A DNA stretch of 64,000 nucleotides, from NCBI GenBank assembly GCA_963817915.1, contig CAWFQL010000012.1:96001-160000 (forward strand), read 5' to 3'. Made by a program: the position numbers and the translations under genes. Below are positions 45,313 to 63,606 of the stretch, in pieces. Origin of the DNA: an uncultured candidate division Zixibacteria bacterium (lineage in GTDB: Bacteria > Zixibacteria > MSB-5A5 > UBA10806). Under the pieces are notes generated by a model. The model did no database searches. It was not told where the DNA came from and saw nothing but the letters and a program-made list of their open reading frames with translations. Each line of letters begins with the position of its first letter. The first letter of the stretch is position 1.

Positions 45313-45349
45313 AGTGATTTTAATAATATTAATTTAAAGGGGAATACTT

Positions 45350-47794
45350 ATGAAAAGATCGCTATTAATTCTAATATTTGGCATCTTATTAACTTCAAAT
45401 TCATACGCTATTGAGCCGCTTTTCGATACTCGAATTGATTATCCGGTGAATGATTCGGCCAATTTTGTCTATTGCGCGGAATTAAATGGCGATAATTCCA
45501 TCGATATGGTCGTAGTACCATCGAATTCAGACAGCATCTTGATTTTCATAAATAGGGGCGATGGCACATTTTTTCCGCCAACTAAATTTCTGGTTGGACC
45601 TCGGATGAAGTCAGCTTATGCCTCTGATCTGGATAATGACGGAAGCAGTGATCTTGCGATAATCAACAATTCAACCGGAAGTCGATTGCATATTTTTTGG
45701 AATAATGGATTTGGTGAATTCGAGGCTGGCCCCACTTTTTCATTTGAAAGTACTTCATGGCTTTCGGCGGTACATTGCGCCGACCTCAATGGTGATAATC
45801 ATAACGATATTCTTGCGACAGATTTTGTGTTAGGCCGCGTTTACGTCTTTTTATATGATGGCTATCGTCATTTCGCGCATTATGTGATTTATTACCCTGG
45901 TTCAGAACCCGCATCAGTGGTCGCGTTCGATTTGGATAATGATGGAGATAAGGATATCGCAACCGCCAATCAGGGAGCAGGCCAATATGGGATAAGCATT
46001 TTAAAAAATGATGGCAACGGCATTTTCGGTCCTGATACTTTATATCGTTACAATAACAGCACAAATTTTATTCGGGCCGCTGATTTTAACAATGATGGTT
46101 TTATGGATCTAACCTGTATTGCCGATACTGGCGTAGTCGTAATGCTCAATGATGGCAACGGTGTATTCGCTTCCAGGTCCATGATTGGAGGATCAATAGG
46201 GATGAGAGCCGTATATCCTTCTGATCTGAACGGTGATAACTTTATAGACCTTGCCGCAGTAAATTACAATCGGAGCACGATGACAACCTATTCGAACAAT
46301 GGCGACGGGACATTTACTAATATTGCAATATATAGCGCTGGCGATCAGCCACGTTCAGTCTTCTGTGCTGATTTAGACGAAGATGGCGCCAATGATATCG
46401 CGGTATCTAATCAGGATGGGAAAAGCGTTTCAATTTATAAGAACAAAGGTGATGGAACATTCTTTAACCCGTCATTACTCGATATTGCATATCTTCCCGT
46501 CCAGATAATCTGTCCCGATATTGATGGAAATGGATTTAGCGATATCGTGGCATTAGGCCCCTTAGCTACAACCTCAATCTATTTAAGCAATGGTAGCGGA
46601 TTTTCGGAGCCTATTAATTTAGATCGAGATTTTCCCGCTGATGGAATAAATTCGGCTGATTTCAATCGAGATGGTTTCACGGATCTAGCCATTTGGACTA
46701 ATGAATTTAATCAATTTCTCGAAATTCGCATTTTGAACGGCAATGGCGATGGTTCATTTCAATCTCCGCATTTATTATATGTTGAGTCACCAATCCAATT
46801 TAATTCATTATCTTGTTTTGATTTAAATCGCGATTCATACGACGATCTTATTATCGGAGGGGATTATGATACGATTTGGGTCAAGTTTAACGACGGTACC
46901 GGCGATTTTGGGAATAGTATTCCAATTGCTTTGGATGAACAGGATACGCGCGCGTTAGCTATAGGCGATATCAACAATGATGGCATTAGCGATATTGTTA
47001 CCGGTTATATTGGTAAATTCACAATTATAGAAAATAATGGCGATGGCACATTTGGCGATATCACATCATATACCGACACTACTAATTTTAACAGCATTTT
47101 GGTTATAGATTTCGATCAAGATGATACTCTTGACATTGTGCTGGCTGGCAATCATTACTTATCACTTTGGCATCAGGTGGGCGACGGGGGCTTTGAAAAT
47201 TCCAGTGTAATTAGCATTTCTTCGACAATGTACGGAACCGGGTTTTGGAACGCAGATATAGATGGAGATGGGATTTCAGACATTCTTCATTTTTCAAATC
47301 CTGGAAATTTATTAAATATTTATGCCAAGCAGGGAGAATTGCAATTTCAGCCTACATTTGGATATGGCATTGGCGGCCGCGCAAATTCAGGCGCCAGCGG
47401 CGATTTTGACGGAAACGGTACTGCCGATGTCGCAGCATCGGTTGTTTTTCAATATAATCCCCAAATAGCAGTATTGTATAATCGCAGAATTCCAACAGGA
47501 ATTAATGACGATGAATTCATTCCATTACCAGTCAAAAGTGTTCTTTCCCAAAACTTTCCCAATCCTTTCAATGCCCAGACGACAATTAAATACAGCCTGC
47601 CGATCGCTAGCCATGTTACTATTGATATCTTCGATATCCTTGGGCGGAAAATCTCAACTCTGGCGCAAGGCCGTCAACTCGCAGGATCACATGCGGTCAT
47701 CTGGGACGCCAGCGGGACAGCGTCAGGAATATATTTTTACCGAATCGATGCCAATGGATATAAAGAAACAAGACAGATGGTATTGCTGAAATAA
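45350..47794 (+). CDS. FG-GAP/VCBS repeat protein with T9SS type A CTD
   Basis: Many DLDNDG..D.A / NNGDGTF repeats, a signal peptide and a QNFPNPFN CTD. Confidence 0.9.
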   Translation: MKRSLLILIFGILLTSNSYAIEPLFDTRIDYPVNDSANFVYCAELNGDNSIDMVVVPSNSDSILIFINRGDGTFFPPTKFLVGPRMKSAYASDLDNDGSSDLAIINNSTGSRLHIFWNNGFGEFEAGPTFSFESTSWLSAVHCADLNGDNHNDILATDFVLGRVYVFLYDGYRHFAHYVIYYPGSEPASVVAFDLDNDGDKDIATANQGAGQYGISILKNDGNGIFGPDTLYRYNNSTNFIRAADFNNDGFMDLTCIADTGVVVMLNDGNGVFASRSMIGGSIGMRAVYPSDLNGDNFIDLAAVNYNRSTMTTYSNNGDGTFTNIAIYSAGDQPRSVFCADLDEDGANDIAVSNQDGKSVSIYKNKGDGTFFNPSLLDIAYLPVQIICPDIDGNGFSDIVALGPLATTSIYLSNGSGFSEPINLDRDFPADGINSADFNRDGFTDLAIWTNEFNQFLEIRILNGNGDGSFQSPHLLYVESPIQFNSLSCFDLNRDSYDDLIIGGDYDTIWVKFNDGTGDFGNSIPIALDEQDTRALAIGDINNDGISDIVTGYIGKFTIIENNGDGTFGDITSYTDTTNFNSILVIDFDQDDTLDIVLAGNHYLSLWHQVGDGGFENSSVISISSTMYGTGFWNADIDGDGISDILHFSNPGNLLNIYAKQGELQFQPTFGYGIGGRANSGASGDFDGNGTADVAASVVFQYNPQIAVLYNRRIPTGINDDEFIPLPVKSVLSQNFPNPFNAQTTIKYSLPIASHVTIDIFDILGRKISTLAQGRQLAGSHAVIWDASGTASGIYFYRIDANGYKETRQMVLLK

Positions 47795-47839
47795 CATGAC
47801 AGATCATTTTTGCGCTACTCAAGTTGCCTGGAGGACTCA

Positions 47840-49506
47840 ATGAAAAGTATTGCTACAGCGTTGCTCATATTGCTCTCGCTTTGGTGCTCGTCGGCTGTTT
47901 TAGCTCCAAGATTCATTATTTGCGCCGCCGATCAACTATCCCGCTGGAGCATGCCCTCTGGCTGTTGTTGCCTGTGATTTTAACGGCGACGGCATCGGCG
48001 ACCTGGCCACTTTAGTTGGATGCGGATCAGGAGTATCTGTATTGATAAATAATGGCGATGGAACTTTTCGGCCGGCGGTTGGTTATGCTGCCGGTTCGTA
48101 CTCTGTTTCGATATTTGCCTGCGATCTCAATGGGGACGGGGACAACGATATTGCTGTATCCAATTTATATTCCAATACTGTAACTATTTTAATAAACAAT
48201 GGCAATGGAACTTTTCAGACGGCAGTAAGCTATCCTACCGGTACGGGCCCTACGACTGTTTTTGCGTGTGATCTTGACGGAGATGGAGATAATGACCTGG
48301 CTATATCGAATGCCGGCGCCAGCGACATATCCATATTAAGAAACAACGGCGATGGAACTTTTCAGGCGGCGTATTACATCCCTGTGTGGGAAAATCCCGA
48401 GTGGCTTTATGCCTGCGATATTGATGGCGATGGGGACAATGACTTGGTTGTACAACATTATTTAACCAGTTATATTTCTATATTAAAGAACAACGGCGAT
48501 GCTACTTTTCAGCCGAGGGTTGACATAGACTTACCACTTTGCAACAGCAAAGATCTTATTGCAGGTGATTTTGACCTCGATGGAGATAATAGATCTTGCC
48601 GCATTATGTATTGACGATTGGGTTTATATATTAATTAACAATGGCGATGGGACTTTTCATGCAGGCGGCAATTGTGGAATGGATTATTGGGTAAATGATA
48701 TTTTTGCGTCCGATCTTAATTGCGATGGGTTTAAAGATTTGGTAGTGACATATTGGGAATCAGGTTCCATCTCTATAGCGCTTAATAACGGTGATGGTAC
48801 TTTTCAAGCGCATGACGACTATGTTGTAGGCGGGCGGCCTTTTGCCGCCGCCGCCGCGGATTTTGATGTTGATGGCGATAATGACCTGGCCCTTGCCAAT
48901 ATAAATATAGATAGCGTCTCAATACTACTTAATAGAACATTGACTTTGCCCGGTGAGATTGACGGAGCTGTGACCGAAATCGACGGCACGACACCGATTG
49001 ATAATGTTATAGTGAAGGCCCTGCAAAGCTATTTGGAGGTCAAACGTGATACCACAGATACAAACGGCCAATATTCTCTGACTAATCTTTCGCCTGGGCT
49101 TTATGAAGTTCGCGCTTCGAAGGATGGATACGAAACCCAGACTCAACAAAATATCGAGGTGATCAGCGGGCAGGCATTGACTTTAAATATCCAATTGAGT
49201 CAATGGATGCCGCCATGCGCTTACGTTCCAGGTGATGTCAATGGCAGTAATACCTTTAATGGACTAGATGTGACCTACGGGGTTAATTACTTCAATGGGG
49301 GAGCAATACCACCATATTTTTGCGAATGTGCGCCAGACAATACCTGGTTTGTTTCCGGAGATGTCAATGGCAGCTGCAGCTTTAATGGTCTCGATGTTAC
49401 CTATATGGTCAATTATTTCAGAGGGGGAACGGCTCCAATACCTTGTGCTGATTGTCCGCCGCCAGGATTGTCGTCTCCTATGCCGAAAGCTGAGATGGAT
49501 GATTGA
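47840..49506 (+). CDS. FG-GAP repeat + carboxypeptidase-regulatory-like + dockerin-like protein, +1 frameshifts near 47905 and 48589
   Basis: ATG 47840 follows GGAGG. The reconstruction MKSIATALLILLSLWCSSAVLA-QDSLFAPPINYPAG matches the intact paralogue at 49565. C-terminal GDVNGS..FNGLDV.Y.VNY occurs twice. Confidence 0.82.
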
Positions 49507-49564
49507 AGTTGTGATACGAAGCAGAAAATCAATTTTAGGTTAGCGCAAATAACGGGAGGACTCG

Positions 49565-51217
49565 ATGAGAAGTATTGTTGCCGCGTTGTTTATATTGATC
49601 TGGCTATTGCCAGCCTCGGCAGTCTTTGCTCAAGACTCGCTTTTTGCTCCTGTAGTCCAATACCCCGCAGGAATCCTTCCCGCGGCGATATTTGCAGGTG
49701 ATCTTGATGGGGATGGGATTAATGATCTGGCGGTTGCAAACGTTGCTTCCAACGACATCTCAATTCTAAGAGGCAACGGCGACGGCACATTTCAAACCGC
49801 AATAAATTATTTTGCTGATTACCAGCCAAAGCTGATATCTGGTGATGACTTTGACGGGGACGGGGATATTGATCTGGCGGCCGCAAATGTTGATTCTAAT
49901 CAGATCTCAATATTAAAGAATAATGGTGATGGCACATTTCAGGCCCCATCTAGCTATAGCCTGAGGGGAAATCCTATGTCAATGTTTGCCGCCGATTTTG
50001 ACGGAGATGGGCATTGCGATCTGGTAACTGCAAACGCCTATACGGACAACCTTTCAATATTGATGAATAATGGCGATGGTACTTTTCAAGCCCCAGTCAT
50101 ATACACCACCGGGGACTATCCTTCAGCGATTACAGCTTGTGATTTCGACTTGGATGGGGATATTGATTTGGCTGTAGCCGAAGGCCCCGATACTATATCA
50201 ATAATGATGAATGACGGCCATGGGGTATTTCAGCCTCCAGTCCAATACACTGCCGGTTTATACTCGAACTCAATTGTCGCCAGTGATCTTGATGGTGATG
50301 GAGACGCGGATCTGGCTATCGTGGCTACCGAACAAAATAGAGTATGTGTACTTTTGAATAATGGCGATGGCACATTTCAAAATGGCGGCGACTATCCTGC
50401 GGGGACCATTCCAATGGCTGTTACTTCCGCAGATTACGACAATGACGGAGACAATGATCTGGCTGTTTCTTATACTGGAGAAGGCACTGTCTTAATCTAC
50501 CTGAACAATGGAAATGGTGTTTTTGGGGAGCCAAACAGTTTTTTTGTAGGAGGTTTTCCTCTTTCTATCATTTCTTCTGATCTTGACGCTGACGGTGATA
50601 TTGACCTGGCCATGGCTAGTTTTTCCACAGTCTCCATATTGCTCAACCAACATGTTGGCGCCTTTGGCGAAGTTATTGGTACTGTGACTGAACTCGATCA
50701 AATGACTCCGATTGACAGTGTTCTGGTTAGAGCATTCCAAAACGATATTGAAATTGCCAGAGACATAGCCAATGCCCAGGGCTATTACAATCTTGAGGCC
50801 CTCACTCCCGGGATATATGATATCGCGGCTTCAAAAACCGGATATGAAAGTCAGATTCTGCAGGAAATCGAAATTGTTTCCGGGCGAACAATGAACATAG
50901 ATTTTATACTGCTTACCGGGGATTCGCCCTGCTCTTATATCGCAGGCGATATTAATAACAGCGGTCAGTCAAACGGTCTTGATGTTGTTTACGGCGTGAA
51001 CTACTTCAAGGGTGATACGCCGCCGCCATATTCTTGTGAATGCACAACAGGTGAAACCTGGTATGTCGCGGGCGATGTCAATGGCAGTTGCAATTTCAAT
51101 GGCCTCGATATTTCATATTTCGTGAACTACCTTAAAGGCGGACCATCCATGATACCATGCCCATTATGTGCTCCGGCAACATTGTCTTCCCATGCCCTGG
51201 AGGATCTAGCACAATAG
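49565..51217 (+). CDS. FG-GAP repeat + carboxypeptidase-regulatory-like + dockerin-like protein
   Basis: Signal peptide VFA|Q, DLDGDG..DLA repeats, L.PG.Y...ASK.GY, and a duplicated dockerin motif with Cys pairs. No T9SS CTD. Confidence 0.88.
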   Translation: MRSIVAALFILIWLLPASAVFAQDSLFAPVVQYPAGILPAAIFAGDLDGDGINDLAVANVASNDISILRGNGDGTFQTAINYFADYQPKLISGDDFDGDGDIDLAAANVDSNQISILKNNGDGTFQAPSSYSLRGNPMSMFAADFDGDGHCDLVTANAYTDNLSILMNNGDGTFQAPVIYTTGDYPSAITACDFDLDGDIDLAVAEGPDTISIMMNDGHGVFQPPVQYTAGLYSNSIVASDLDGDGDADLAIVATEQNRVCVLLNNGDGTFQNGGDYPAGTIPMAVTSADYDNDGDNDLAVSYTGEGTVLIYLNNGNGVFGEPNSFFVGGFPLSIISSDLDADGDIDLAMASFSTVSILLNQHVGAFGEVIGTVTELDQMTPIDSVLVRAFQNDIEIARDIANAQGYYNLEALTPGIYDIAASKTGYESQILQEIEIVSGRTMNIDFILLTGDSPCSYIAGDINNSGQSNGLDVVYGVNYFKGDTPPPYSCECTTGETWYVAGDVNGSCNFNGLDISYFVNYLKGGPSMIPCPLCAPATLSSHALEDLAQ

Positions 51218-54325: not shown

Positions 54326-56953
54326 ATGCCCGAAATAGATCCCGTATGCGGAATGGAAGTTGAACCGGAAACCGCCGAATTCAAAACCAAATACAAAGGC
54401 AAAGAGTATTATTTCTGTGCCAAGTCTTGTCTTGAAAATTTCACGGCGGAGCCCGAGCAATATCTTCATCCCAATGTCATAGTCGATGATGGATTGCATA
54501 GTTCGGCATCCAGCACTCACAAGGGCCATTTGGTTCAGTATGCTATTCCTATTTTCAAATTTAATCCCGATAACGTGCTTGCCCAGATGGTCGAATTTAA
54601 TAATCGGATCGGCGATGGCATCGATATCTCCCTCAACGAACGCAAAACCGAAATTATTCTAAAATACGATTCGTCAAAAACTGATCCAGGAAAGCTTTTT
54701 GAGCATCTGGCCAAAATGGGAGTCGAAATCCCCATGCAAAAAACCGAACTGGATATTTCCGGCATGAGCTGCGCTTCATGCGTGCTTAAGATCGAAACCA
54801 GCCTTCGCGGCACCGATGGTGTCTTGTCGGCGGCTGTAAATTTCGGCATGGAAAAAGCCTTTGTTACTCACCTGCCCAAACTTGGATTTGATAATCTAAA
54901 GAAGGTGGTTGAGGACGCGGGATATAAAGTTATTGAGACCTCTCAAATTCCAGGTATTGATTCCGAAAGAGAAGCGCGCGAAAAGGATTATAAAAAGCTC
55001 AAATCCAAATTTATTTTATCAGCCATTGGCGCCGGTGTTGTGATGTTTCTGGCGATGACTATGATTTTGGAGCCAAATGTTAGTCATATAATTCAATTGT
55101 TTATGACCATTCCTGTTATTGTCTGGGGAGGTTCGCAGTTTTATCGTGGATTCTGGTCATCATTGAAACATAAATCGGCGGATATGAATACGCTCGTAGC
55201 TGTCGGAACTGGGGCGGCATTTATCTACAGCCTGGTAGCGACTATTTCGCCCGACCTGTTTGTTTCGACAGGTCATGAAGTAAATGTCTATTACGATACG
55301 GCGGCCGTTATTATAGCGTTGATATTGTTGGGAAAGGTGCTCGAAGCGAGGGCTAAAGGTAAGACATCGGAAGCTATTAAAAAATTAATAGGCTTACAGC
55401 CGAAAACCGCGAGAGTCATCAGGGATGATATCGAAAAAGATATCGAAATCGCGCAGGTAGTTATCGGCGATATTGTAATAGTTCGCCCCGGTGAAAAAAT
55501 ACCGGTCGATGGTAAAGTAATCGATGGCTATTCCAGTATCGATGAATCCATGCTTACAGGCGAAAGCCTTCCTGTGGAGAAAAAAGCTGGAGATAATATA
55601 ATCGGTGCTACCATCAATAAAGTCGGCAGCCTTAGATTCAAAGCCACAAAAATCGGCAAAGATACTGTCCTGGCTCAGATTATAAAAATGGTACAAGAAG
55701 CGCAGGGCTCTAAAGCGCCAATTCAAAGATACGCCGATAAAATTGCGAGCATTTTTGTCCCGATTGTAATCGGTATCGCCGTATTGACATTCGCCATCTG
55801 GATAATGTTGGGCCCGCAACCTTCATTCATAATGGCGCTGATGAACTTTGTTGCTGTTTTGATAATCGCCTGCCCCTGCGCGCTCGGTCTCGCCACACCT
55901 ACGGCAATTATGGTTGGCGCCGGCCTGGGCGCGGAGAATGGTATACTGATTAAAGGCGGGGAAAGCCTTGAGAAAATACATAGTATAGACACCGTCGTAT
56001 TCGATAAAACAGGCACCCTGACGTTGGGCAAGCCGGAAGTCACGGATATTCTAGCATTTCCGCCATTCGATAAGGACCAGGTACTGCTATATGCCGTATC
56101 GCTTGAGAAACTTTCCGAGCACCCGCTTGCCGAAGCTGTCATTAATAAGGCTGCAGAAAAAAACATTGCTCCAATGTATGTCGATAAATTCGCCGCTCTT
56201 CCGGGGTTTGGCATAGAAGGATTCATTGGAAGCAGGAAGATACTTCTGGGCAATACACGGTTAATGAGCGAGGCCGGCATAAATTTGACTGAAAGTATCG
56301 GCGCGTTAGAGAAATTTTCCCTCGAAGGTAAAACTCCGGTAATTCTGGCGATTGACCGGGAGATTGCCGGAATAATCGCGGTATCGGATACAATAAAACC
56401 CGAGGCTATTTCGGTTGTGGAAAAACTCCACCAACGAAAAATCTCGGTTGCGATGATTACCGGTGACAACGAATTTTCCGCAAAGGCGATCGCGGATAAA
56501 ATTCAAATTGACCATGTTTATGCTAATGTTCTTCCCGATCAGAAAGCCAGTCGAATCAATAAACTCCAGGAAACAGGATCGGTCGTAGCAATGGTTGGAG
56601 ACGGTATCAATGACGCGGTCGCCCTGGTTCAGGCAGATGTCGGAATCGCAATCGGCTCAGGGACAGATATCGCTATGGAAGCATCCGATATCACTTTGAT
56701 GAAAAATGATCTCAACGGAGTTATTAAATCGATTGAACTTTCAAAGAAAACATTAAGCACGATAAAATGGAATCTCTTCTGGGCCTTCATTTACAATATT
56801 ATCGGAATCCCGATCGCCGCCGGAATCCTTTTTCCATTGATGGGCACTAAAGGCCTGCTAAATCCGATGATAGCCGCCGGAGCGATGGCGTTTTCATCGG
56901 TTTTTGTAGTCACCAATTCTCTACGGCTCAAAAAGGCAAAATTGAAAGTATAA
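54326..56953 (+). CDS. copA: Copper-translocating P1B-type ATPase with N-terminal YHS and HMA domains
   Basis: DPVCGM..YYFC..SC (YHS), GMSCASC, TGES, CPC, DKTGT, HP, GDGIND, YN and MAFSS. Confidence 0.95.
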
Positions 56954-56981
56954 ATAATCGAAAGCTTTATAAGGAGGTTTT

Positions 56982-57128
56982 ATGTCAATAGATCCAGTCT
57001 GCAAAATGAAGGTTGAAGAGAGCAAGGCCGCCGCCAAAAGCGACTACAAAGGCAAAACCTATTATTTCTGCGCCAAATCTTGTAAGGAAAAATTCGATAG
57101 GGAACCAGAAAAATATTTGGGCAAATAG
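56982..57128 (+). CDS. Stand-alone YHS domain protein (48 aa)
   Basis: Manual translation: [48 protein letters not shown], with an AAGGAGG SD. Too short for the ORF track. Confidence 0.92.
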   Translation: MSIDPVCKMKVEESKAAAKSDYKGKTYYFCAKSCKEKFDREPEKYLGK

Positions 57129-57166
57129 GCGCTTCGATTTCCGCATAGACGATCAAATGTCAATTG

Positions 57167-57192
57167 TGGGCATCATTTGGATGCCCATTTTA
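57167..57192 (+). terminator. Probable terminator after the copA-YHS pair
   Basis: TGGGCATC-atttg-GATGCCCA followed by TTTT. Confidence 0.55.
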
Positions 57193-57457
57193 ATGATAAT
57201 AGATTCACATTAACTCCCGTTATCCCCAAAATTATTGTTTCCATCTTAGACCGATTTTAGTATTATAGCCGCATGGTTTTGACTCGCTCGAGCCCGCTAA
57301 CTAATTTTCCCAATTTTTCATTGATAGATACTATCCCCATTAGATTTAATTCAAGTTGTCCCCAAAATTACTCACCCATTTATTTAAAGGAAATATAATA
57401 AGAATCAAAATGAGATATTGATGTAAGCGCGAATAATTTACCGAGTAAGGAGGCCCG

Positions 57458-58681
57458 ATGGCAAAAAAATTATTATTGATGCTATTGTTTCTAACATTCC
57501 TAACGGCGACATGCTTTGCCCTGGAGGTAATTCAGGACACTACCGCCGGACCTCCGGCTCCAGCGCCGCCGACCAATGTGCGGGTGGCTGATAAGCCAAA
57601 CGACGCCGGACATGGCCTGATCGTAAAATGGGATTTGTCCATTGATGACTCCAATGGTCTTGGCAACGTAGTAGCATATGATATTCAACGATCAGCCAGC
57701 GCGGACGGCCCCTTTATATCAAGAGGAGTTGTGGCCAAAGGGATGAATTCCTATGCCGATGTCGATGAAACAGTGCCATCAGCGGATAACCCAAGCCTCA
57801 ATTACATGGCCCCCAATAGCACATGGTACTATAAAGTCGTATCGATCTCGGACAAGAATGTCCGTTCGAATCCCAGCGAAGTTATTTCAGGCACGACAGT
57901 TGAAAATTGGATTCATACGGGTAAGATCCCTATTTTTGTAGCCGCCATACTTTTTACTGTATTCATTTTGATTTTCATTCAGGTTGCAAAGAAGGGCAAA
58001 AACCTTTACGTCAGGCCGATCGCCGGTATCAATGCTGTCGATGATGCCATCGGCAGAGCTACCGAGATGGGCAAGCCTATTCTTTTCATTCTTGGACTTG
58101 GTACAGCCGGTGATATCGCGACTATCGCAGGGTTTACGATTCTTTCGCGCGTAGCCAAACGAACCGCGGAATATCAAACGAAAGTAATTGTGCCTGTTCA
58201 AGACCCCGTCGTGCTTGCTGTCGCGCAAGAAACAGTTAGAACAGCTTATCTTGAGGTTGGCCGTCCCGATCAATACAATCCTGACAATATCTTTTTCCTT
58301 ACATCGATGCAATTCCCGTATGTGGCGGCTGTCAATGGCATCATGCTTCGCGAACGGCCCGCGACAAATTTTTATATGGGCACATTCTATGCCGAATCGT
58401 TGATTCTCGCTGAAACCGGCAATATCGCGGGTTCTATTCAGATAGCGGGTACTGATCAAATCGCTCAGCTGCCGTTTTTTGTCGCGGCCACCGACTATAC
58501 ACTTATCGGCGAAGAGCTTTACGCGGCCTCGGCTTATCTTTCTCAAGAACCGGTCCAGCTCGGTACCCTTAAAGCTCAGGATTATACTAAAGCAGTTGTC
58601 ATGGCTATAATAGTTTTGGGCGCAATCGCAATCACCCTCGGATGGACCTTCATTCGAGATATGGTAACTATAACCCTGTAA
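57458..58681 (+). CDS. Fibronectin type III domain plus DUF6754-like membrane protein
   Basis: Signal peptide, FN3 (PPTNVRV...VKW...YDIQRS...YYKVVS), a TM helix, R.IAG..A.DDA.GRATEMGKP, LIGEELYAASAYLS and a C-terminal TM. The DUF assignment is from recollection. Confidence 0.75.
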   Translation: MAKKLLLMLLFLTFLTATCFALEVIQDTTAGPPAPAPPTNVRVADKPNDAGHGLIVKWDLSIDDSNGLGNVVAYDIQRSASADGPFISRGVVAKGMNSYADVDETVPSADNPSLNYMAPNSTWYYKVVSISDKNVRSNPSEVISGTTVENWIHTGKIPIFVAAILFTVFILIFIQVAKKGKNLYVRPIAGINAVDDAIGRATEMGKPILFILGLGTAGDIATIAGFTILSRVAKRTAEYQTKVIVPVQDPVVLAVAQETVRTAYLEVGRPDQYNPDNIFFLTSMQFPYVAAVNGIMLRERPATNFYMGTFYAESLILAETGNIAGSIQIAGTDQIAQLPFFVAATDYTLIGEELYAASAYLSQEPVQLGTLKAQDYTKAVVMAIIVLGAIAITLGWTFIRDMVTITL

Positions 58682-58693
58682 CCTGGAGACACT

Positions 58694-59314
58694 ATGAAAA
58701 GAGAAATTCCATTATTGATTGTCATGGTTACAGGAATACTGATGTTTTTTCAGTATTTTATACCAAGCAATCTTTCCGAGAGAACATTTACCTTTTTGAA
58801 TGATTGGGTAATGGTAATCGGTATTCTTTCGTTGCCATTAGGAATCTGGAGTCTGGTTAAGGCCAATATTCAAAAATTATCTATTAAAGATGAATGGTTC
58901 TATTCGGCGGTCTTGCTCGCTGGCTTTTTTGTCATGGTCATAAGCGGCTTAAAGCCTAACTGGAGAACTGGTAGCGATATGCTGCATGTCACACTTTTCA
59001 ATAATATCCTTATCCCCATCCAGTCTACTATTTTTTCGCTGCTGGCATTTTTTGTCGCCAGCGCGGCTTATAGAGCATTTCGAGCGCGCTCAGTGCTCGC
59101 GACTATTCTCTTGGTCACCGCTTTGATTATCATGTTCCGTTTAATCCCACTCGGTCCGATCTCGGACGTCAACAATTGGCTTGTCGAAAAAATATTAACT
59201 GTTCCCAATATGGCGGCTAAACGGGCCATCGCGATGGGTATCGCGCTCGGCGCGACCGCAACGGCCATCAAGATCATCATGGGAATCGAACGAACCTATA
59301 TGGGTCGGGATTAG
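58694..59314 (+). CDS. Conserved hypothetical integral membrane protein
   Basis: About six TM segments, FSLLAFF.ASAAYRAFR motif, GGAG SD, operonic spacing. Confidence 0.85.
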   Translation: MKREIPLLIVMVTGILMFFQYFIPSNLSERTFTFLNDWVMVIGILSLPLGIWSLVKANIQKLSIKDEWFYSAVLLAGFFVMVISGLKPNWRTGSDMLHVTLFNNILIPIQSTIFSLLAFFVASAAYRAFRARSVLATILLVTALIIMFRLIPLGPISDVNNWLVEKILTVPNMAAKRAIAMGIALGATATAIKIIMGIERTYMGRD

Positions 59315-59320
59315 GAGGCG

Positions 59321-60166
59321 ATGGTAATGGAATTCTTACACAGAATGATGCAAATCGACCGTCGCTGGATTTACCTGGCAATAGGTCTCGCAGTTATTAT
59401 ACCCGCGATGATACCATTTACGGTGCCGGTTTCTGTTTCCACTGAAGTAAAAAAGATTTACGACTTCGTGGAAAATCTTGGGCCGAATGATTACGTAATG
59501 GTTGCTCTAGATTATGATCCATCCTCAATGGCCGAGCTAAATCCCATGGCAGAGGCAGTGCTTAAACACGCGTTCTCGCTTAATAGAAAAGTCGTCATCG
59601 TAACCCTGGCGCAATTCGGTCCCGGGATGGTAGAAGAGATAGTTACCCGACTCGGCAATGAATACAAGAAGGTTCGCGGAGTGGATTACACATTCCTCGG
59701 CTATCGGCCTTATCCGGCCATCACAATCATGCTGATGGGCACCGATTTCCGCGTACCGTTCCCGCAAGATTATTATGGGACGCCGCTTGATTCACTTCCA
59801 ATGATGCGCGGTATCAAGAATTTTTCGAATGTTAAAGGTGTTATTGATCTCACCGCCGGCAATACGGCCGATTTCTGGATCACCTACGGTAATGGTCGCT
59901 ACGATGTGCCTCTTGCCATCGGGATTACAGGCGTTATGGCCGCCGACTATTATCAATACCTTCAGTCCAATCAGATATTTGGGATTATTCCTGGCGTTAA
60001 GGGAGCCGCGGAGTACGAACGGCTTATCGATAAGCCGGGTCAGGGAATGCAGCAGGCTTCATATCAGGTTGTCGCCCACTCAGTTATTATTCTATTCATC
60101 CTGCTCTCAAATATCGCATTCTTTGTCACCCGCAACCAGAAATCAAAGACGGGAGGTGTGAAATGA
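59321..60166 (+). CDS. Conserved hypothetical membrane protein (TM - soluble alpha/beta domain - TM)
   Basis: IDRRWIY, DYDPS..AEL.PM, YLQSNQ..G...G.KGAAEYE and an AGGAGG SD. Confidence 0.85.
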   Translation: MVMEFLHRMMQIDRRWIYLAIGLAVIIPAMIPFTVPVSVSTEVKKIYDFVENLGPNDYVMVALDYDPSSMAELNPMAEAVLKHAFSLNRKVVIVTLAQFGPGMVEEIVTRLGNEYKKVRGVDYTFLGYRPYPAITIMLMGTDFRVPFPQDYYGTPLDSLPMMRGIKNFSNVKGVIDLTAGNTADFWITYGNGRYDVPLAIGITGVMAADYYQYLQSNQIFGIIPGVKGAAEYERLIDKPGQGMQQASYQVVAHSVIILFILLSNIAFFVTRNQKSKTGGVK

Positions 60167-60786
60167 CATCTCAATTATTATGGAACACTGTCGCCGCCTT
60201 CCTTACCCTTTGCATATTCAGTTTTCTATACAAGGATAACCCCTTCTATAAATTCGCGGAGCGGCTCGTGGCCGGTATCGCTACTGGCTATTGGACTATG
60301 CTTTTGTTTCACACCAACTTTGTGCCGATAGTCTGGAACCGTCTGGTTCATGAACACAATTATTGGTATATTATTCCCACATTTCTCGGGCTTTTGATGT
60401 GGACTCGTTTTTCAAAAAAATGGTCGTGGCTATCCCGTTATTCGATCGCCTTCTATATAGGTATCTCGTCCGGTATTTCAATTACCCTGGCGCTTTACGC
60501 GTCGCTTTTCAGACAGTTAGAGGCGACAGTCAAATATCCCCTAACAATGGATGCGGCGGGATTGTCTGCATTGCTGATCATCATCGGAGTAATATCCGCT
60601 CTCATATACTTCTTCTTCTCAGCCGCACATAAAGGCGCGATGGGATTTGGTTCGAAACTTGGAATTTATATCATTATGATCGGATTCGGTGCCGGTTTTG
60701 GCCTTACGGTAATGGGACGTATAGCCTTGCTGGTTCAAAGAGTTATCTTCCTGAAGGGGTATGTTCAATCCTTTTTTGGGATGTAG
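60163..60786 (+). CDS. Conserved hypothetical integral membrane protein
   Basis: About five to six TM segments, SFLYKDNP.YK.AE and MIGFGA.FG.TVMGR motifs; ATGA overlap with the upstream gene. Confidence 0.85.
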   Translation: MTSQLLWNTVAAFLTLCIFSFLYKDNPFYKFAERLVAGIATGYWTMLLFHTNFVPIVWNRLVHEHNYWYIIPTFLGLLMWTRFSKKWSWLSRYSIAFYIGISSGISITLALYASLFRQLEATVKYPLTMDAAGLSALLIIIGVISALIYFFFSAAHKGAMGFGSKLGIYIIMIGFGAGFGLTVMGRIALLVQRVIFLKGYVQSFFGM

Positions 60787-60812
60787 CTAAAGGACTATTA
60801 AATTGTCCGCAT

Positions 60813-60842
60813 AGGGGCCGGCTATCCGGCCTCTTTGCTTTT
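60813..60842 (+). terminator. Rho-independent terminator after the membrane-protein operon
   Basis: AGGGGCCGG-ctat-CCGGCCTCT followed by a T-rich tail. Confidence 0.7.
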
Positions 60843-60905
60843 CTATTCGCGAGCATCAGATTTTATTTGGAACCTATACGATAAAAACATATATATTACT
60901 TTAGT

Positions 60906-63606
60906 ATGTCATCAAGTCGTGCCAGGGTTTATTTTGTAGTCTTAATAACGGTTTCATTCGGCCTGTCATGTGTCTATTTCAATACTATGTTCACGGCTGA
61001 AAAGAAATTTAAGCAGGCGGAAAAAAGCCAGTTCGCCGAAAAGATCCAAGACCAAAATATGAATGCTCCGCCGCAAAGTATCCCCAAGCCGAAGCAAGGC
61101 AATAAGCGATCCAGATTTGAGGAAGGCGTGACCGTAGCAGATCCTCAGGAAAAAGCGCTTTACGATGATGTTATTAAGAAAGCCGGAACAGTCCTGAAAT
61201 ATCATCCTAATTCAAAATGGATAGATGAAGCCCTCTGGCTCATAGGCAAATCATATTTTAATACCGGCGAATATACTCTGGCCGATAGAAAATTCAAGGA
61301 ATTGGTAACCAATCATCCGGAATCAAAATACGCCGATGACTCCTACTACTATATGGGACTCTGCGAAATAATTCTGGGGCATAGCGATGCCGCCTTGACA
61401 GCATTCAGCGAAATCGAGCACTCCAAGAAAAAAAGCCCATACATGGATGATGTTTATTTCACGGGCGGAGTAATGGCCATGAACTCTGATAACTATTCGG
61501 AGGCCGTAGAGCTTTTCAAAAAATATCTTACTGAATTTTCCGGCGAGGATTCCTCCGCGCAAGCCTCGTTCATGATAGGTAAGAGCCAAGAAAAATTGGG
61601 CAATTACATGGACGCCTACCATGCCTACAAAAATGTCGAAAAATACAAACCATCAAAGCAGCTTTATTTCGATGCTACCATTGCGGCCGCCTCGGCAATC
61701 TTAAGAACCGATTCGATTGCGGTAGGAATGGCGGTCCTTCTGGATCTTGCCGATAATCAAAAATATTTCAGCAGATCCGGCGAAATTCGAATGAAGATAG
61801 CCGAAGGATATTACCTCGAAAAACAATTCGATAAGGCAATTGAAATTTATAAAGTCGTTACGGAAAAATATCCTCGAACCAATGATGCCGCTGAAGCTTA
61901 TTATCGCCTGGGAATTATTTATCAAAATGATTTATTTGACATTAAATCCGCAAAGGAATCCTTCACGAAGGCGCAAGGCGAATATCCTCAATCGGAATAC
62001 CGCAATTTGGCCGCAGCGAGACTTGCTCAGATAGCAAAACTCGAGACCTATCAGACGCAGATTCAACGAGCCGATTCACTTGAATTAGCTATCGCGAACG
62101 AAAAGAATACGCCGGTTTCGAATCGATTCGGCAAAATCTACAGGCGACTCGCTACATGTTGCGAGCCTCGATTCCTCAAAATCGATTTCGCCCGATACCG
62201 CTATCGCCTTACAGAGGGTTGATTCGACGCAATCGTCCGATACACCAAAAATGCTAGTCGATAGTACTGTTTCACCGAAGCAAGACAAAAAGCCTGATTC
62301 CTTGATGACGCTGGCCGACAGCTCTGTATCAACGAACCCAAACAAAATGCCTGATTCCCTAAAAACACCGGCCGATAGCTCTGTCTCACAAAAACAAAAC
62401 AAAAAGCCTGATTCCCTGGCGATCAATTATCCAACGCTTGGGCCATATCTCCGGGACATGATCAAGAATATAAATTCATCCGCAATCGCCCCCGAGGACT
62501 CATCCCTTAAATCGAATACACAGGACAGCTCCAAAGCGACTGTTTACGGTCCGAATCCGGAAAAATCGGCAAAAGCGCCTGCACTTAGCCCGGTGGATTC
62601 TATCGGATTCGCCGAAATCAAGGCAAGACAGGATAGCATTCGATTGGATATTTCCACTGCCGGGATTGATGCGCGTTACCAGCTCGCGGAGCTTTACGCC
62701 TATGAATTGAATCGTCCGGATTCCGCCCTGAATGCGTATAAGAATTTGTTAGAAAAATTCCCCAATTCCCGCTATGCCGCCAAATCTCTTTTAGCCTCTG
62801 CTTATATCGAAATGAACCGCGGCGATTCGATCAGCGCCAATACTTATTTGAAGGATCTAGTAGACAAATATCCTCGTAGCGTCCAGGCCGCCGAGGCCGC
62901 GGATCTGCTGAATTTCAAGATCAATCTTTCAGACAACGCTGTCGGCCTTTATGCCGTCGCTGAAAGTCTGGTGTTCCAAGGTAATAATCCCGACTCTGCG
63001 ATTGCATTATATAAATATATTGCCAGTGAATTTCCCGATCTTGCGCCTAATGCCTCATTTGCGGTCGCCTGGATATTAGACCAGGTTGAAGGAACGACTG
63101 ACAGCTCGGCTTATTTCGCGTATTCTCTGGTAAATGAAAAATACCCGCAGACCGAGTTTGCCGAGGCGGCCAAAATCCGCATAGGTTTAATCAAAAAAGA
63201 AGAGACAAAACGAATTCCTAAACGGGAGCAGCCACAACAAACCGATGAAAACATTCCTGACACATCCAGTCAGATTTCTGGTAATATTCCGATGGCGCCC
63301 CCCATCAAAACCGCAGGCGATTTCGTATATCCTCAAGCGCTCTTTGGCCGTGACCTAAAAGGAAATGTGATCTTTAAAATTAAGATGGACATTAGCGGCA
63401 AGGTCCAGGATTATGAGATTATCGGACCGTCCGGTGAAACCGCAATTGATTCATCCGCCACCGCCGCCTTACTAAAAACGGTTTTCGATACATCCAAGCT
63501 CGATCTGGCACAACTTGACAATTATTTTCAGTATTCGATACATTTCAAACGACCACAAGTAGATATTTATAATAATCCTTATGATAGTCTTAATTGGAGG
63601 CGATAA
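60906..63606 (+). CDS. TPR lipoprotein (SprE/PorW-like N-terminus) with C-terminal TonB_C-like domain, +1 frameshift near 62121
   Basis: Lipobox GLSC, YFNT, HPNSKWIDEALWLIGKSY and many TPRs. The shifted frame IDSAKSTGDSL... runs open into ORF 62251. The C-terminus reads YPQALFGRDLKGNVIFKIKMDISGKV...SG..AID..A. Confidence 0.8.
62257..62427 (+). repeat. Three imperfect 57-nt (19-aa) tandem repeats within the CDS
   Basis: VDSTVSPKQDKKPDSLMTL / ADSSVSTNPNKMPDSLKTP / ADSSVSQKQNKKPDSLAIN. Confidence 0.85.

What the first reader, a model, noticed from the sequence alone, without database searches (positions are those of the whole stretch)
57458..60786. Self-contained four-gene operon for an uncharacterised membrane complex
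Seen: four genes with gaps of 12, 6 and -4 nt, good SD sequences, their own upstream region and a terminator. Two are TM-alpha/beta-TM proteins (one with an extracytoplasmic FN3 domain) and two are 5-6 TM proteins with conserved-looking motifs (ASAAYRAFR, KDNPFYKFAE, GRATEMGKP, GAAEYE). No ATPase, redox-cofactor or known transporter motif is visible. The 2+2 architecture hints at a pseudo-symmetric heterotetramer with soluble domains possibly on opposite membrane faces. From recollection, similar quartets (DUF6754) occur in diverse anaerobic bacteria and archaea; this needs confirming. Inference: a new class of transporter (peptides or amino acids) or an ion-coupled membrane machine.
Basis: partly seen in the sequence, partly recalled or inferred. 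Interest (0 to 1): 0.76.

Follow-up and report, generated by a model that had tools for sequence, protein, structure and literature searches.

The report
Uncharacterised four-subunit membrane complex operon
A compact four-gene operon encodes membrane proteins of unknown function that keep the same gene order across many little-studied bacterial phyla and resemble no characterised transporter, motor, enzyme or defence system.

Summary
Four co-directional genes lie at the stated coordinates: A 57458-58681, B 58694-59314, C 59321-60166 and D 60163-60786. The gaps are 12, 6 and -4 nt, each gene has an SD sequence, there is a 329-nt leader, and a hairpin terminator sits at 60813-60834. A carries Pfam DUF6754 (E 1e-117). 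B, C and D match no Pfam, NCBIfam, PADLOC or PDB entry. In 80 related loci from at least 12 bacterial phyla, 109 of 112 A genes with enough downstream DNA are followed by B, C and D in that order. Twenty-three loci hold two or three tandem quartets, which are ancient paralogue classes. AlphaFold models (pLDDT 91 and 95.5) give A's domain and C the same plan, TM-alpha0-(beta-alpha)x6-TM. Charge bias and natural insertion variants place A's domain in the cytoplasm and C's in the periplasm. They also make B (N-in, 6 TM) the topological inverse of D (N-out, 6 TM). My best reading is a hetero-oligomeric inner-membrane translocator built from two inverted halves (confidence 0.4). Function is unproven. 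The claim of archaeal members and the Pfam-level FN3 call were not confirmed. No paper mentions the family.

The parts
57166..57196 (+). Hairpin (9-bp stem, 5-nt loop) plus TTTTAATG after the upstream YHS gene. It is the likely terminator that separates the operon from the copper-ATPase/YHS unit.
   Evidence: MFE and centroid fold; sequence. The consensus scan did not flag it.
57210..57370 (+). Leader with two copies of a 25-nt direct repeat (57210-57234 and 57346-57370, 84% identical, 136 nt apart). Each ends in TCCCCAAAATTA. It is a possible regulator or promoter element; function unknown.
   Evidence: The 12-mer occurs only at these two places in the window, but 23 of 100 shuffles give at least 2 matches. 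Rfam finds no match at E<=1 in 56900-61000, and the leader fold has z-score 0.70.
57458..58681 (+). Gene A, 407 aa. It has a Sec-type signal peptide (aa 1-22), a periplasmic FN3-like module (aa 23-148), TM1 (about aa 156-177), a cytoplasmic six-stranded Rossmann-like domain (about aa 178-374) and TM2 (about aa 378-400). From TM1 onward it is DUF6754.
   Evidence: PF20539, E 1e-117; AF2 pLDDT 91, pTM 0.83; K+R 5.9 vs D+E 2.2 flanking the domain. The N-terminal module recurs in 147 of 265 A N-termini.
58694..59314 (+). Gene B, 206 aa. It is a 6-TM protein, N-in/C-in. The conserved motif SLLAF..ASAAYRAFRAR lies at the cytoplasmic end of TM4. The periplasmic TM3-TM4 loop (aa 91-106) is a hotspot for domain insertion in relatives.
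   Evidence: K+R 8.5 on the 'in' loops vs 3.8 on the 'out' loops; 24 of 28 long B relatives carry an insertion at this loop. No Pfam or NCBIfam family.
59321..60166 (+). Gene C, 281 aa (279 if it starts at 59327). It has an N-terminal amphipathic helix with DRR, TM1 (aa 14-30), a periplasmic six-stranded Rossmann-like domain (aa 41-236) and TM2 (aa 241-276) with invariant H253 and N264.
   Evidence: (AF2 pLDDT 95.5, pTM 0.89). No family or PDB match.
60163..60786 (+). Gene D, 207 aa. Its start overlaps C's stop (ATGA). It is a 6-TM protein, inferred N-out/C-out. The conserved motifs YKDNPFYKFAE and YFFFSxxHKG lie in cytoplasmic loops, and the last TM is glycine-rich (G158, G167, G176, G180, T182, R186).
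   Evidence: variants with extra TMs fix the orientation. 2709 homologue clusters exist; none of the 120 listed has a Pfam domain, and the only source name shown is 'hypothetical protein'. The Atlas finds no named fold with TM above 0.30.
60813..60844 (+). Intrinsic-terminator-like hairpin AGGGGCCGG-CTAT-CCGGCCTCT followed by TTGCTTTTCT.

Best explanation
The four genes encode the subunits of one obligate inner-membrane complex of a kind not yet described. It is built from two topologically inverted halves. The first half is A (signal peptide, periplasmic FN3-like module, TM, cytoplasmic Rossmann-like domain, TM) plus B (6 TM, N-in). The second half is C (TM, periplasmic Rossmann-like domain, TM) plus D (6 TM, N-out).

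I read it as a translocator (transporter or channel-like device). B and D would form the membrane pathway. The two Rossmann-like domains would act as ligand-binding or gating modules on the two faces. The variable periplasmic add-ons (A's N-terminal module, and propellers inserted in B in other lineages) would capture or dock the substrate or a partner.

Shown: the genes, their strict co-occurrence and order, the folds of A's domain and of C, the lack of any known family, and the sequence-based topology. Inferred: physical assembly, an origin by inverted duplication of a two-gene cassette, and translocation as the activity. The substrate is unknown.
For: 1) Tight coupling: gaps of 12, 6 and -4 nt with SD sequences.
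2) Synteny: B, C and D homologues are found in 79, 74 and 73 of 80 loci fetched through A. 109 of 112 A genes with at least 2400 nt downstream are followed by B, C and D in order. 15 further A genes lay too close to a locus end to be counted.
3) Spread over at least 12 named phyla with high conservation: A domain 48-64% identity, and mean column identity of 41-47% for B, C and D.
4) Whole quartets duplicate together. Loci with 0, 1, 2 and 3 complete quartets number 8, 49, 9 and 14, and copies cluster by position across genomes rather than within a genome.
5) A natural variant (L061) has a C-like soluble domain (iE 4e-48) inserted in B's TM3-TM4 loop, which places that loop and C's domain on the same side and next to each other.
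6) A's domain and C share the element order TM-alpha0-(beta-alpha)x6-TM, and both hit the same generic Rossmann chains, e.g. 7f67_D.
7) Opposite orientation. A has a signal peptide and a K/R-rich flank on its domain. C has a conserved DRR N-terminus and a K/R tail. B is N-in. The D core is N-out/C-out: 2 of 2 copy-2-type D variants examined add an N-terminal TM that begins MSR or MNR, and 4 of 6 copy-3-type variants show a C-terminal TM followed by a K/R tail. In the other 2 the HMM alignment ran to the end, so no extension was printed.
8) Inverted two-fold architecture is, from general knowledge, typical of transporters and channels.
9) No ATPase, cofactor or enzyme signature in any subunit.
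Against: No subunit matches any transporter family or solved structure. B/D and A/C show no profile homology, so the duplication is conjecture. (beta-alpha)x6 domains look alike in element order whether or not they are related.

No conserved acidic residue lies in any TM core, which is unusual for ion-coupled devices. The periplasmic add-ons are protein-interaction modules (FN3-like, FG-GAP, WD40, PQQ-type propellers, HEAT), which fits a scaffold or relay better than small-molecule uptake.

Cross-phylum identity of 50-65% is higher than I would expect for ordinary secondary transporters (my judgement). B and D were not folded here, and I had no coordinates, so no pathway or interface was seen. 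Topology rests on charge bias and variant architecture, not on experiment.
Confidence: 0.4

Rival explanations
1. The complex is an envelope scaffold or trans-membrane relay, not a transporter. It holds or senses periplasmic partners through the FN3-like, propeller and C modules. It couples them to the conserved cytoplasmic domain of A, in some lineages with help from a cytoplasmic GlmL-like ASKHA ATPase. This would resemble FtsEX/MacB-type mechanotransmission or Tol-like tethering in logic.
For: The periplasmic decorations are protein-binding modules. Of 16 long A homologues, fn3 occurs in 2, HEAT in 1, a PQQ_2 propeller in 1, and 12 have no Pfam hit in the extension. FG-GAP propellers occur in 9 and a WD40-type propeller in 1 of 28 long B relatives.

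Extra solo A paralogues sit beside a single BCD set in Cloacimonadota and Fermentibacterota, as if A were an exchangeable adaptor. A GlmL-like ATPase (M) and a 375-aa barrel-sandwich protein (U) lie directly upstream on the same strand in 12 of 44 loci that have more than 3.5 kb upstream, in several phyla. An M23 peptidase lies upstream in 5 Cloacimonadota loci. The TM cores have no conserved charge.
Against: A lacks any periplasmic module in some single-copy lineages (Poribacteria A of 292-293 aa) and in copy 3 of triple loci, so the core function does not need it. No universally conserved neighbour exists: the most frequent flank family is in 12 of 80 loci. M and U are absent from this window. 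There is no similarity to FtsX, MacB, Tol or Exb families.
Confidence: 0.3
2. It is a membrane-bound enzyme system. The Rossmann-like domains would be catalytic (for example a glycosyl, phosphoryl or lipid-carrier reaction started in the cytoplasm by A and completed in the periplasm by C), and B and D would flip the lipid-linked intermediate.
For: Invariant residues of A's domain sit just after strands, where Rossmann-like folds usually bind ligands: G74 after beta1, G169 and E174 after beta4, T193 at the end of beta5 with Q198 after it, and G212, E213 and E214 after beta6, in domain numbering. Invariant acidic residues occur in C's domain: E72, D150 and E233. GT-B glycosyltransferases and sugar-phosphate-binding eIF2B-type domains are among the nearest folds of both models.
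Against: All fold matches are weak and generic: 0 hits at E<=0.001 and query-normalised TM <=0.38. No conserved nucleotide-binding motif exists. The GLGTAG after beta1 in this protein is not conserved, since only the first G is invariant. GRATEMGKP does not fit the Walker A pattern GxxxxGK[ST], as read from the sequence. No sugar, lipid or cell-wall gene is a constant neighbour.
Confidence: 0.15
3. It is an Rnf/Nqr-like ion-translocating redox complex, with two roughly 200-aa 6-TM subunits of opposite topology plus anchored soluble subunits.
For: The size and topology pattern of B and D recalls RnfA/RnfE and NqrD/NqrE (recalled, not tested by structure). The linked protein U has an RnfC_N barrel-sandwich domain in one member (28.8 bits against a cut-off of 25.6).
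Against: No Rnf-Nqr Pfam or NCBIfam hit for any of 47 B or 42 D sequences at E<=1. No invariant or nearly invariant Cys or His pair in B or D. No flavin or Fe-S motif. U is absent from the window and from most loci.
Confidence: 0.03
4. The four genes are merely neighbours with unrelated functions, or the system is a mobile or defence island.
For: None beyond the lack of a direct binding test.
Against: Order is conserved in 109 of 112 cases across phyla, and whole quartets duplicate together. PADLOC gives 0 hits for all four proteins. tblastn of A's domain finds no match in 72,556 plasmid or 50,697 phage records. GC content is like the surroundings.
Confidence: 0.02

Closest known systems
Pfam DUF6754 (PF20539)
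   Same: Gene A is a full-length member (aa 149-401 against profile positions 3-255 of 257, E 1e-117).
   Different: The Pfam entry covers only A's TM-Rossmann-TM part and carries no function. It does not record the three partner families, the operon, or the topology.
RnfA/RnfE and NqrD/NqrE pairs in Rnf/Na+-NQR complexes (comparison from general knowledge)
   Same: Two roughly 200-aa 6-TM subunits of opposite membrane orientation are encoded in one operon with membrane-anchored subunits that carry soluble domains.
   Different: No sequence or profile similarity. No cofactor-binding residues. B and D are not detectably homologous to each other. No electron-input subunit is present.
Inverted-repeat or dual-topology transporters such as paired SMR proteins (general knowledge)
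   Same: The architecture has two halves of opposite orientation, here (A+B) against (C+D).
   Different: Each half here is two polypeptides and includes a roughly 190-aa Rossmann-like domain, so homologous-looking soluble domains end up on opposite faces. I know of no described transporter with that feature.
BatA/BatB-type TM-VWA-TM proteins of FCB-group 'aerotolerance' operons (recalled, not tested)
   Same: An alpha/beta domain is anchored by a TM helix at each end, within multi-gene membrane operons of the same bacterial groups.
   Different: No VWA Pfam hit at E<=1. No VWA or integrin I-domain appears among the listed Foldseek hits. No MoxR ATPase is present.
Generic Rossmann-like domains (eIF2B alpha/beta/delta C-terminal domains, GT-B halves, UbiX, Moco carrier protein)
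   Same: A three-layer alpha/beta/alpha sandwich with six beta-alpha units.
   Different: Best E-values are 1.7e-3 to 2.7e-3, query-normalised TM <=0.38 and identity 7-17%. This is fold class only, not family membership.

Membership tests
DUF6754 (PF20539) | Match to the Pfam HMM above the gathering score (27 bits) over the full domain | tested here: met
   392.3 bits, E 1e-117, aa 149-401 on profile positions 3-255 of 257. The same holds for all 16 long homologues scanned.
Fibronectin type III (PF00041) for A aa 23-148 | Pfam fn3 match | tested here: not met
   0 families at E<=10. BLASTP to the fn3-bearing homologue P0161 gives E 0.008. The region was not folded, so an FN3-like fold remains plausible but unshown.
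Rnf/Nqr 6-TM subunits (RnfA/E, NqrD/E) | Match to the Rnf-Nqr family models | tested here: not met
   No hit at E<=1 for the window's B and D or among the 25 commonest families matched by 47 B members and the 16 families matched by 42 D members.
Rnf/Nqr 6-TM subunits (RnfA/E, NqrD/E) | The two subunits are paralogues of each other | tested here: not met
   hhalign B vs D: probability 0.3%.
Rnf/Nqr 6-TM subunits (RnfA/E, NqrD/E) | Conserved cysteines that hold an Fe-S centre at the subunit interface (recalled feature) | tested here: not met
   No Cys among the invariant or nearly invariant columns of B or D.
MotA/TolQ/ExbB-MotB/TolR/ExbD stator-type motors | Family HMM match | tested here: not met
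   No such Pfam or NCBIfam hit.
MotA/TolQ/ExbB-MotB/TolR/ExbD stator-type motors | Conserved intramembrane Asp (recalled feature) | tested here: not met
   No conserved D or E in any TM core. The only conserved intramembrane polar residues are C's Q249, H253 and N264.
ABC, ECF or TRAP-type multi-subunit transporters | Walker-type ATPase or a substrate-binding-protein family match | tested here: not met
   No ATPase gene in the operon. GRATEMGKP does not fit GxxxxGK[ST]. No SBP or permease family hit; the TMD0_ABC hits in 10 of 47 B members have best E 0.0018, which I take as noise.
Dinucleotide-binding Rossmann domains (e.g. RCK/KTN) | Conserved GxGxxG after beta1 | tested here: not met
   The window's A has GLGTAG, but only the first G is invariant in 40 sequences. 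No RCK or Trk chain is among the listed Foldseek hits.
Known anti-phage defence systems | Match to a PADLOC model | tested here: not met
   0 hits at E<=0.01 for A, B, C and D and for M and U.
GlmL/MutL accessory ATPase (for the linked protein M, which is not in the window) | Pfam PF13941 match | tested here: met
   PF13941, E 9e-131.
GlmL/MutL accessory ATPase (for the linked protein M, which is not in the window) | NCBIfam equivalog or subfamily cut-offs | tested here: not met
   NCBIfam scores fall below the cut-offs: 247 vs 475, 220 vs 600 and 184 vs 204. M is a relative, not an equivalog.

The most novel reading that the evidence does not exclude
ABCD founds a new superfamily of membrane translocators. 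It arose by an ancient inverted duplication of a two-gene cassette (a TM-Rossmann-TM protein plus a 6-TM protein). Related Rossmann-like domains therefore sit on opposite faces of the membrane and gate a B-D pathway. In some lineages a GlmL-like ASKHA ATPase and a barrel-sandwich protein energise or regulate it. The two or three ancient paralogous quartets per genome would be distinct specificities.
Probability: 0.3. Interest if true: 0.85.

Novelty: categorically new. Interest (0 to 1): 0.72.

Why it matters
The module is large and conserved. A's domain has 2225 clusters at 50% identity. D has 2709 clusters at 90% identity.

It is widespread in Zixibacteria, Ignavibacteria, Cloacimonadota, Poribacteria, anammox Planctomycetota and related candidate phyla, which dominate many sediments, digesters and sponges and have few cultured members. 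Three of its four subunits have no family entry at all, and no paper in the searched library mentions the one that has.

Such conservation points to an important membrane function that current annotation misses entirely. A complex with look-alike soluble domains on both faces of the membrane would also be a new architectural principle worth a structure.

Tried and rejected
1) Complex prediction of A(140-407)+B+C+D returned 'no answer'. The control in which C was replaced scored nearly as high as the real set, so it counts neither for nor against binding.

2) Folding the in-frame C-D ORF of L030 to get two subunits in one job. The mixed alignment A5 was misaligned in 93 of 93 rows and was discarded unfolded. 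The 'fusion' itself keeps D's own SD and ATG. Its 15-aa linker is topologically inconsistent with an N-out D. I therefore do not use it as evidence.

3) BLASTP and hhalign for A/C and B/D paralogy found nothing.

4) PDB sequence profiles for A, B, C, D and M gave 0 hits at E<=1. U gave only noise, with E>=0.021.

5) Member-wise Pfam scans of the B, C and D alignments at E<=1 showed no consistent family.

6) The flank survey found no universal neighbour. PPDK, aroK-aroB, an M23 peptidase, transketolase and Wzi are lineage-specific.

7) Riboswitch search: Rfam gave 0 matches at E<=1, and the leader has no unusual folding energy.

8) Defence, plasmid and phage rival: no hits.

9) Literature: the terms DUF6754, PF20539 and PF13941 occur in 0 papers. 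Two broader searches gave only irrelevant listings; I saw titles and abstract starts only.

10) A link between U and archaeal-lipid GGGP synthase (PDB hit E 0.021) was rejected as a generic phosphate-binding-loop match.


Full report
OBSERVATION

The gaps are 12, 6 and -4 nt.

Each start has a Shine-Dalgarno sequence. C's first ATG is only 2 nt from its TAGGAGG, and a second ATG at 59327 is better spaced. C's stop and D's start overlap as ATGA.

Upstream lies a 329-nt leader. It opens with a hairpin plus T-run after the 48-aa YHS gene (not flagged by the scan). Downstream, a 9-bp G+C-rich hairpin with a T-rich tail sits at 60813-60834. GC content does not differ from the surroundings. The operon description is therefore confirmed.

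FAMILIES

B, C and D have no Pfam or NCBIfam family.

Scanning all 47, 45 and 42 members of their alignments one by one at E<=1 gave no consistent family. Profiles of all four found nothing in the PDB sequence set at E<=1. PADLOC gave nothing. tblastn of A's domain found nothing in the plasmid or phage collections.

The terms DUF6754 and PF20539 occur in no paper of the searched library. In the two protein searches whose rows carry source names, the only names shown besides one 'DUF6754 domain-containing protein' are 'hypothetical protein'.

DISTRIBUTION AND SYNTENY

A's domain has 2225 relatives among 50%-identity cluster representatives (820 at E<=1e-30).

The best 80 loci were fetched. By record title they are all bacterial:
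- Zixibacteria 15
- Cloacimonadota 11
- Ignavibacteriota 10
- Poribacteria 9
- WOR-3 (listed as Caldifarciminota) 4
- Planctomycetota, including Scalindua and Brocadiaceae, 4
- Eisenbacteria 3
- Fermentibacterota 3
- Stahlbacteria 3
- Edwardsbacteria 1
- Gemmatimonadota 1
- CSSED10-310 1
- unassigned 15

HMMs seeded with the window's proteins found A, B, C and D in 80, 79, 74 and 73 of the 80 loci. Of 127 A genes, 15 lay too near a locus end to be counted. Of the other 112, 109 are followed by B, C and D in order.

The three exceptions are extra 'solo' A genes: directly after D in Cloacimonadota (L040, L069), and about 1.9 kb downstream of D in a Fermentibacteria locus (L045). The window holds one quartet only.

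PARALOGY

Loci with 0, 1, 2 and 3 complete quartets number 8, 49, 9 and 14. In a FastTree of 127 A domains, the tandem copies group by position across genomes, not within genomes, so they are old paralogue classes.

The window's A is sister to copy 2 of L001 (83% identity, support 99*). It lies in a starred 14-row clade with the middle copies of the triple loci. The solo A genes are recent lineage-specific duplicates. That whole quartets duplicate and persist as units is strong evidence that the four products work together.

STRUCTURES AND TOPOLOGY

AlphaFold2 models were made with 40 and 45 homologues. A's domain scored pLDDT 91 and pTM 0.83. C scored pLDDT 95.5 and pTM 0.89.

Both show a long TM helix, a helix alpha0, six beta-alpha units and a second long TM helix. 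C has an extra loop of about 30 aa after alpha3.

Foldseek against the PDB gave no hit at E<=0.001 for either model. The best hits are generic Rossmann-like domains with query-normalised TM <=0.38. The same eIF2B chains and GT-B enzymes appear in both lists. Same element order is expected of any (beta-alpha)x6 domain, so this is consistent with common origin but does not prove it. hhalign sees no A/C or B/D homology.

Orientation of each subunit:
- A has a Sec-type signal peptide, so its N-terminal module is periplasmic. The residues flanking its Rossmann-like domain are K/R-rich (5.9 vs 2.2 D+E), which puts the domain in the cytoplasm.
- C has a 97%-conserved DRR before TM1 and a K/R-rich tail (4.6), with an acidic flank on its domain. 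This makes it N-in with a periplasmic domain.
- B has six TM segments, with 8.5 K+R on the N-in loops against 3.8 on the others.
- D is ambiguous by charge alone, but natural variants settle it. Both copy-2-type D proteins examined carry an extra N-terminal hydrophobic segment that starts MSR or MNR. Four of six copy-3-type D proteins show an extra C-terminal TM followed by a K/R-rich tail; in the other two the HMM alignment ran to the end and no extension was printed. The D core is therefore N-out/C-out with an even number of TMs, the inverse of B.

The (A+B) half is thus the topological mirror of the (C+D) half.

VARIATION

A's periplasmic part ranges from absent to about 1070 aa: Poribacteria A is 292-293 aa, and the copy-3 A of triple loci is also short. 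The window's module (aa 23-148) recurs in 147 of 265 A N-termini. It is FN3-like by pattern only.

Of 16 long A proteins, Pfam found fn3 in 2, HEAT in 1, a PQQ_2 propeller in 1 and nothing in the extension of 12.

Of 28 long B relatives, 24 have an insertion of 150-460 aa at one place, the TM3-TM4 loop. FG-GAP propellers account for 9 and a WD40-type propeller for 1.

In L061 (Planctomycetota) the insert is a C-like soluble domain (iE 4e-48). This places that loop and C's domain on the same, periplasmic side and suggests they are neighbours in the complex. The periplasmic face is therefore plastic, while the membrane and cytoplasmic parts are rigidly conserved.

CONTEXT

In the window the neighbours are an M3 oligoendopeptidase, a copper P-type ATPase and a YHS protein upstream. 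Two TPR proteins lie downstream, one YfiO-like and one with a TonB_C domain. None of these is conserved next to the quartet elsewhere, and no flank family occurs in more than 12 of 80 loci.

The one recurring cross-phylum neighbour is a pair directly upstream on the same strand. It occurs in 12 of 44 loci with more than 3.5 kb upstream (13 loci in all). These are Zixibacteria, Ignavibacteria, Eisenbacteria, Gemmatimonas, Scalindua and unassigned bins.
- M is a soluble ASKHA ATPase of about 610 aa in the GlmL/'MutL' family: PF13941 at E 1e-128 to 1e-131, but below the NCBIfam GlmL cut-offs.
- U is a soluble protein of about 375 aa. Its only family signal is an RnfC_N barrel-sandwich domain, above cut-off in 1 of the 7 U proteins scanned.
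- Both are very conserved, with mean column identity 70% and 64%.
- Neither is in this window.

No riboswitch or other Rfam family lies in 56900-61000.

MECHANISM

No subunit has an ATPase, flavin, Fe-S, haem or nucleotide-binding signature. GRATEMGKP does not fit a Walker A motif, and the GLGTAG after beta1 of this A is not conserved.

The TM cores hold no conserved acidic residue. They are rich in invariant Gly, Pro, Ser and aromatic residues. The only conserved polar positions are C's Q249, H253 and N264. This argues against a Mot/Tol/Exb-type stator and against an Rnf/Nqr-type redox pump.

The inverted two-half plan is, from general knowledge, the hallmark of transporters and channels. I therefore commit to a hetero-oligomeric translocator with B-D as the pathway and the two Rossmann-like domains as face-specific binding or gating modules (confidence 0.4).

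The main rival is a scaffold or relay that couples periplasmic protein partners to the cytoplasm, possibly with the M ATPase (0.3). It is favoured by the protein-interaction nature of the add-on modules and by the exchangeable solo A genes. A membrane enzyme system is third (0.15).

That the four proteins form one functional unit I hold at about 0.85, on synteny, co-duplication and the B::C-domain insertion.

COMPARISON AND NOVELTY

A is a member of DUF6754. Beyond that, every membership test failed: fn3, Rnf/Nqr, stator motors, ABC/ECF/TRAP, dinucleotide-binding Rossmann domains and defence systems. The nearest analogies are architectural only: RnfA/E-type inverted 6-TM pairs, dual-topology transporters and TM-VWA-TM Bat proteins. 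The last two are recalled, not tested.

I rate the system categorically new, with the caveat that function and assembly are inferred.

LEFT UNCHECKED

- B and D were not folded; the only model seen is the Atlas's own of a D homologue (pLDDT 0.79), with no named neighbour above TM 0.30.
- No coordinates were available for superposition.
- Archaeal or monoderm members are only an Atlas lead.
- The genome-wide co-occurrence of M and U with ABCD could not be measured.
- The complex-prediction job gave no verdict.

Noticed in passing
L003, L006, L027, L034, L038, L051, L052, L053, L067, L072, L077, L080 (e.g. L027:4380-7511): A GlmL/'MutL'-family ASKHA ATPase (~610 aa) and an unannotated ~375-aa soluble protein with an RnfC_N-like barrel-sandwich domain lie directly upstream of ABCD on the same strand. 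The pair occurs in 12 of 44 loci with enough upstream DNA, in several phyla. Both are 64-70% conserved. Neither is in this window.
   Followed up: partly
L061:1255-2595; L009:8803-10578; proteins P0271-P0294: B relatives carry large insertions at one periplasmic loop (TM3-TM4). L061 has a C-like domain, L009 and 9 clusters have FG-GAP propellers, and P0281 has a WD40-type propeller.
   Followed up: yes
L040:6266-9148, L069:7017-9872, L073:9648-12098, L045:7638-8801, L039:8721-9887, L044:14629-15789: Extra 'solo' A (DUF6754) genes without their own B, C and D lie next to a complete quartet in Cloacimonadota and Fermentibacterota/Aegiribacteria. They are recent lineage-specific duplicates in the tree.
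   Followed up: partly
L030:9619-11331: C and D are read as one 571-aa ORF in a Zixibacteria chromosome. D's own SD (GGAGGAGGGAGG) and ATG are intact, and the 15-aa linker does not fit an N-out D. It is probably a lost stop codon or an assembly error rather than a working fusion.
   Followed up: partly
window 57210-57234 and 57346-57370: A 25-nt direct repeat (84% identical, 136 nt apart) lies in the operon leader, each copy ending in TCCCCAAAATTA. The 12-mer occurs nowhere else in the window, but chance gives at least 2 matches in 23 of 100 shuffles.
   Followed up: partly
window 59321 vs 59327: C's first ATG is only 2 nt from the SD sequence. The in-frame ATG two codons later (59327) has an 8-nt spacing and may be the real start.
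   Followed up: no
window 54326-57128: A copper-type P1B ATPase has an N-terminal YHS domain plus an HMA domain. It is followed by a separate 48-aa YHS-domain gene (56982-57128) that the 50-aa ORF list missed.
   Followed up: partly
window 43465-51217: A run of secreted repeat proteins (LVIVD and FG-GAP, two with T9SS C-terminal sorting domains). The overlapping ORFs 48042-48614 and 48559-49506 both carry FG-GAP repeats and may be one gene split by a frameshift.
   Followed up: no
window 60906-63606: Two TPR proteins lie downstream of the terminator: a YfiO/BamD-like one with a lipoprotein-like N-terminus, and one ending in a TonB_C domain. They are not conserved next to the quartet in other loci.
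   Followed up: partly
L072:9411-11182; L051:7287-8108: Extra C genes: two tandem C copies in a Gemmatimonas locus, and a second C after D in L051.
   Followed up: no
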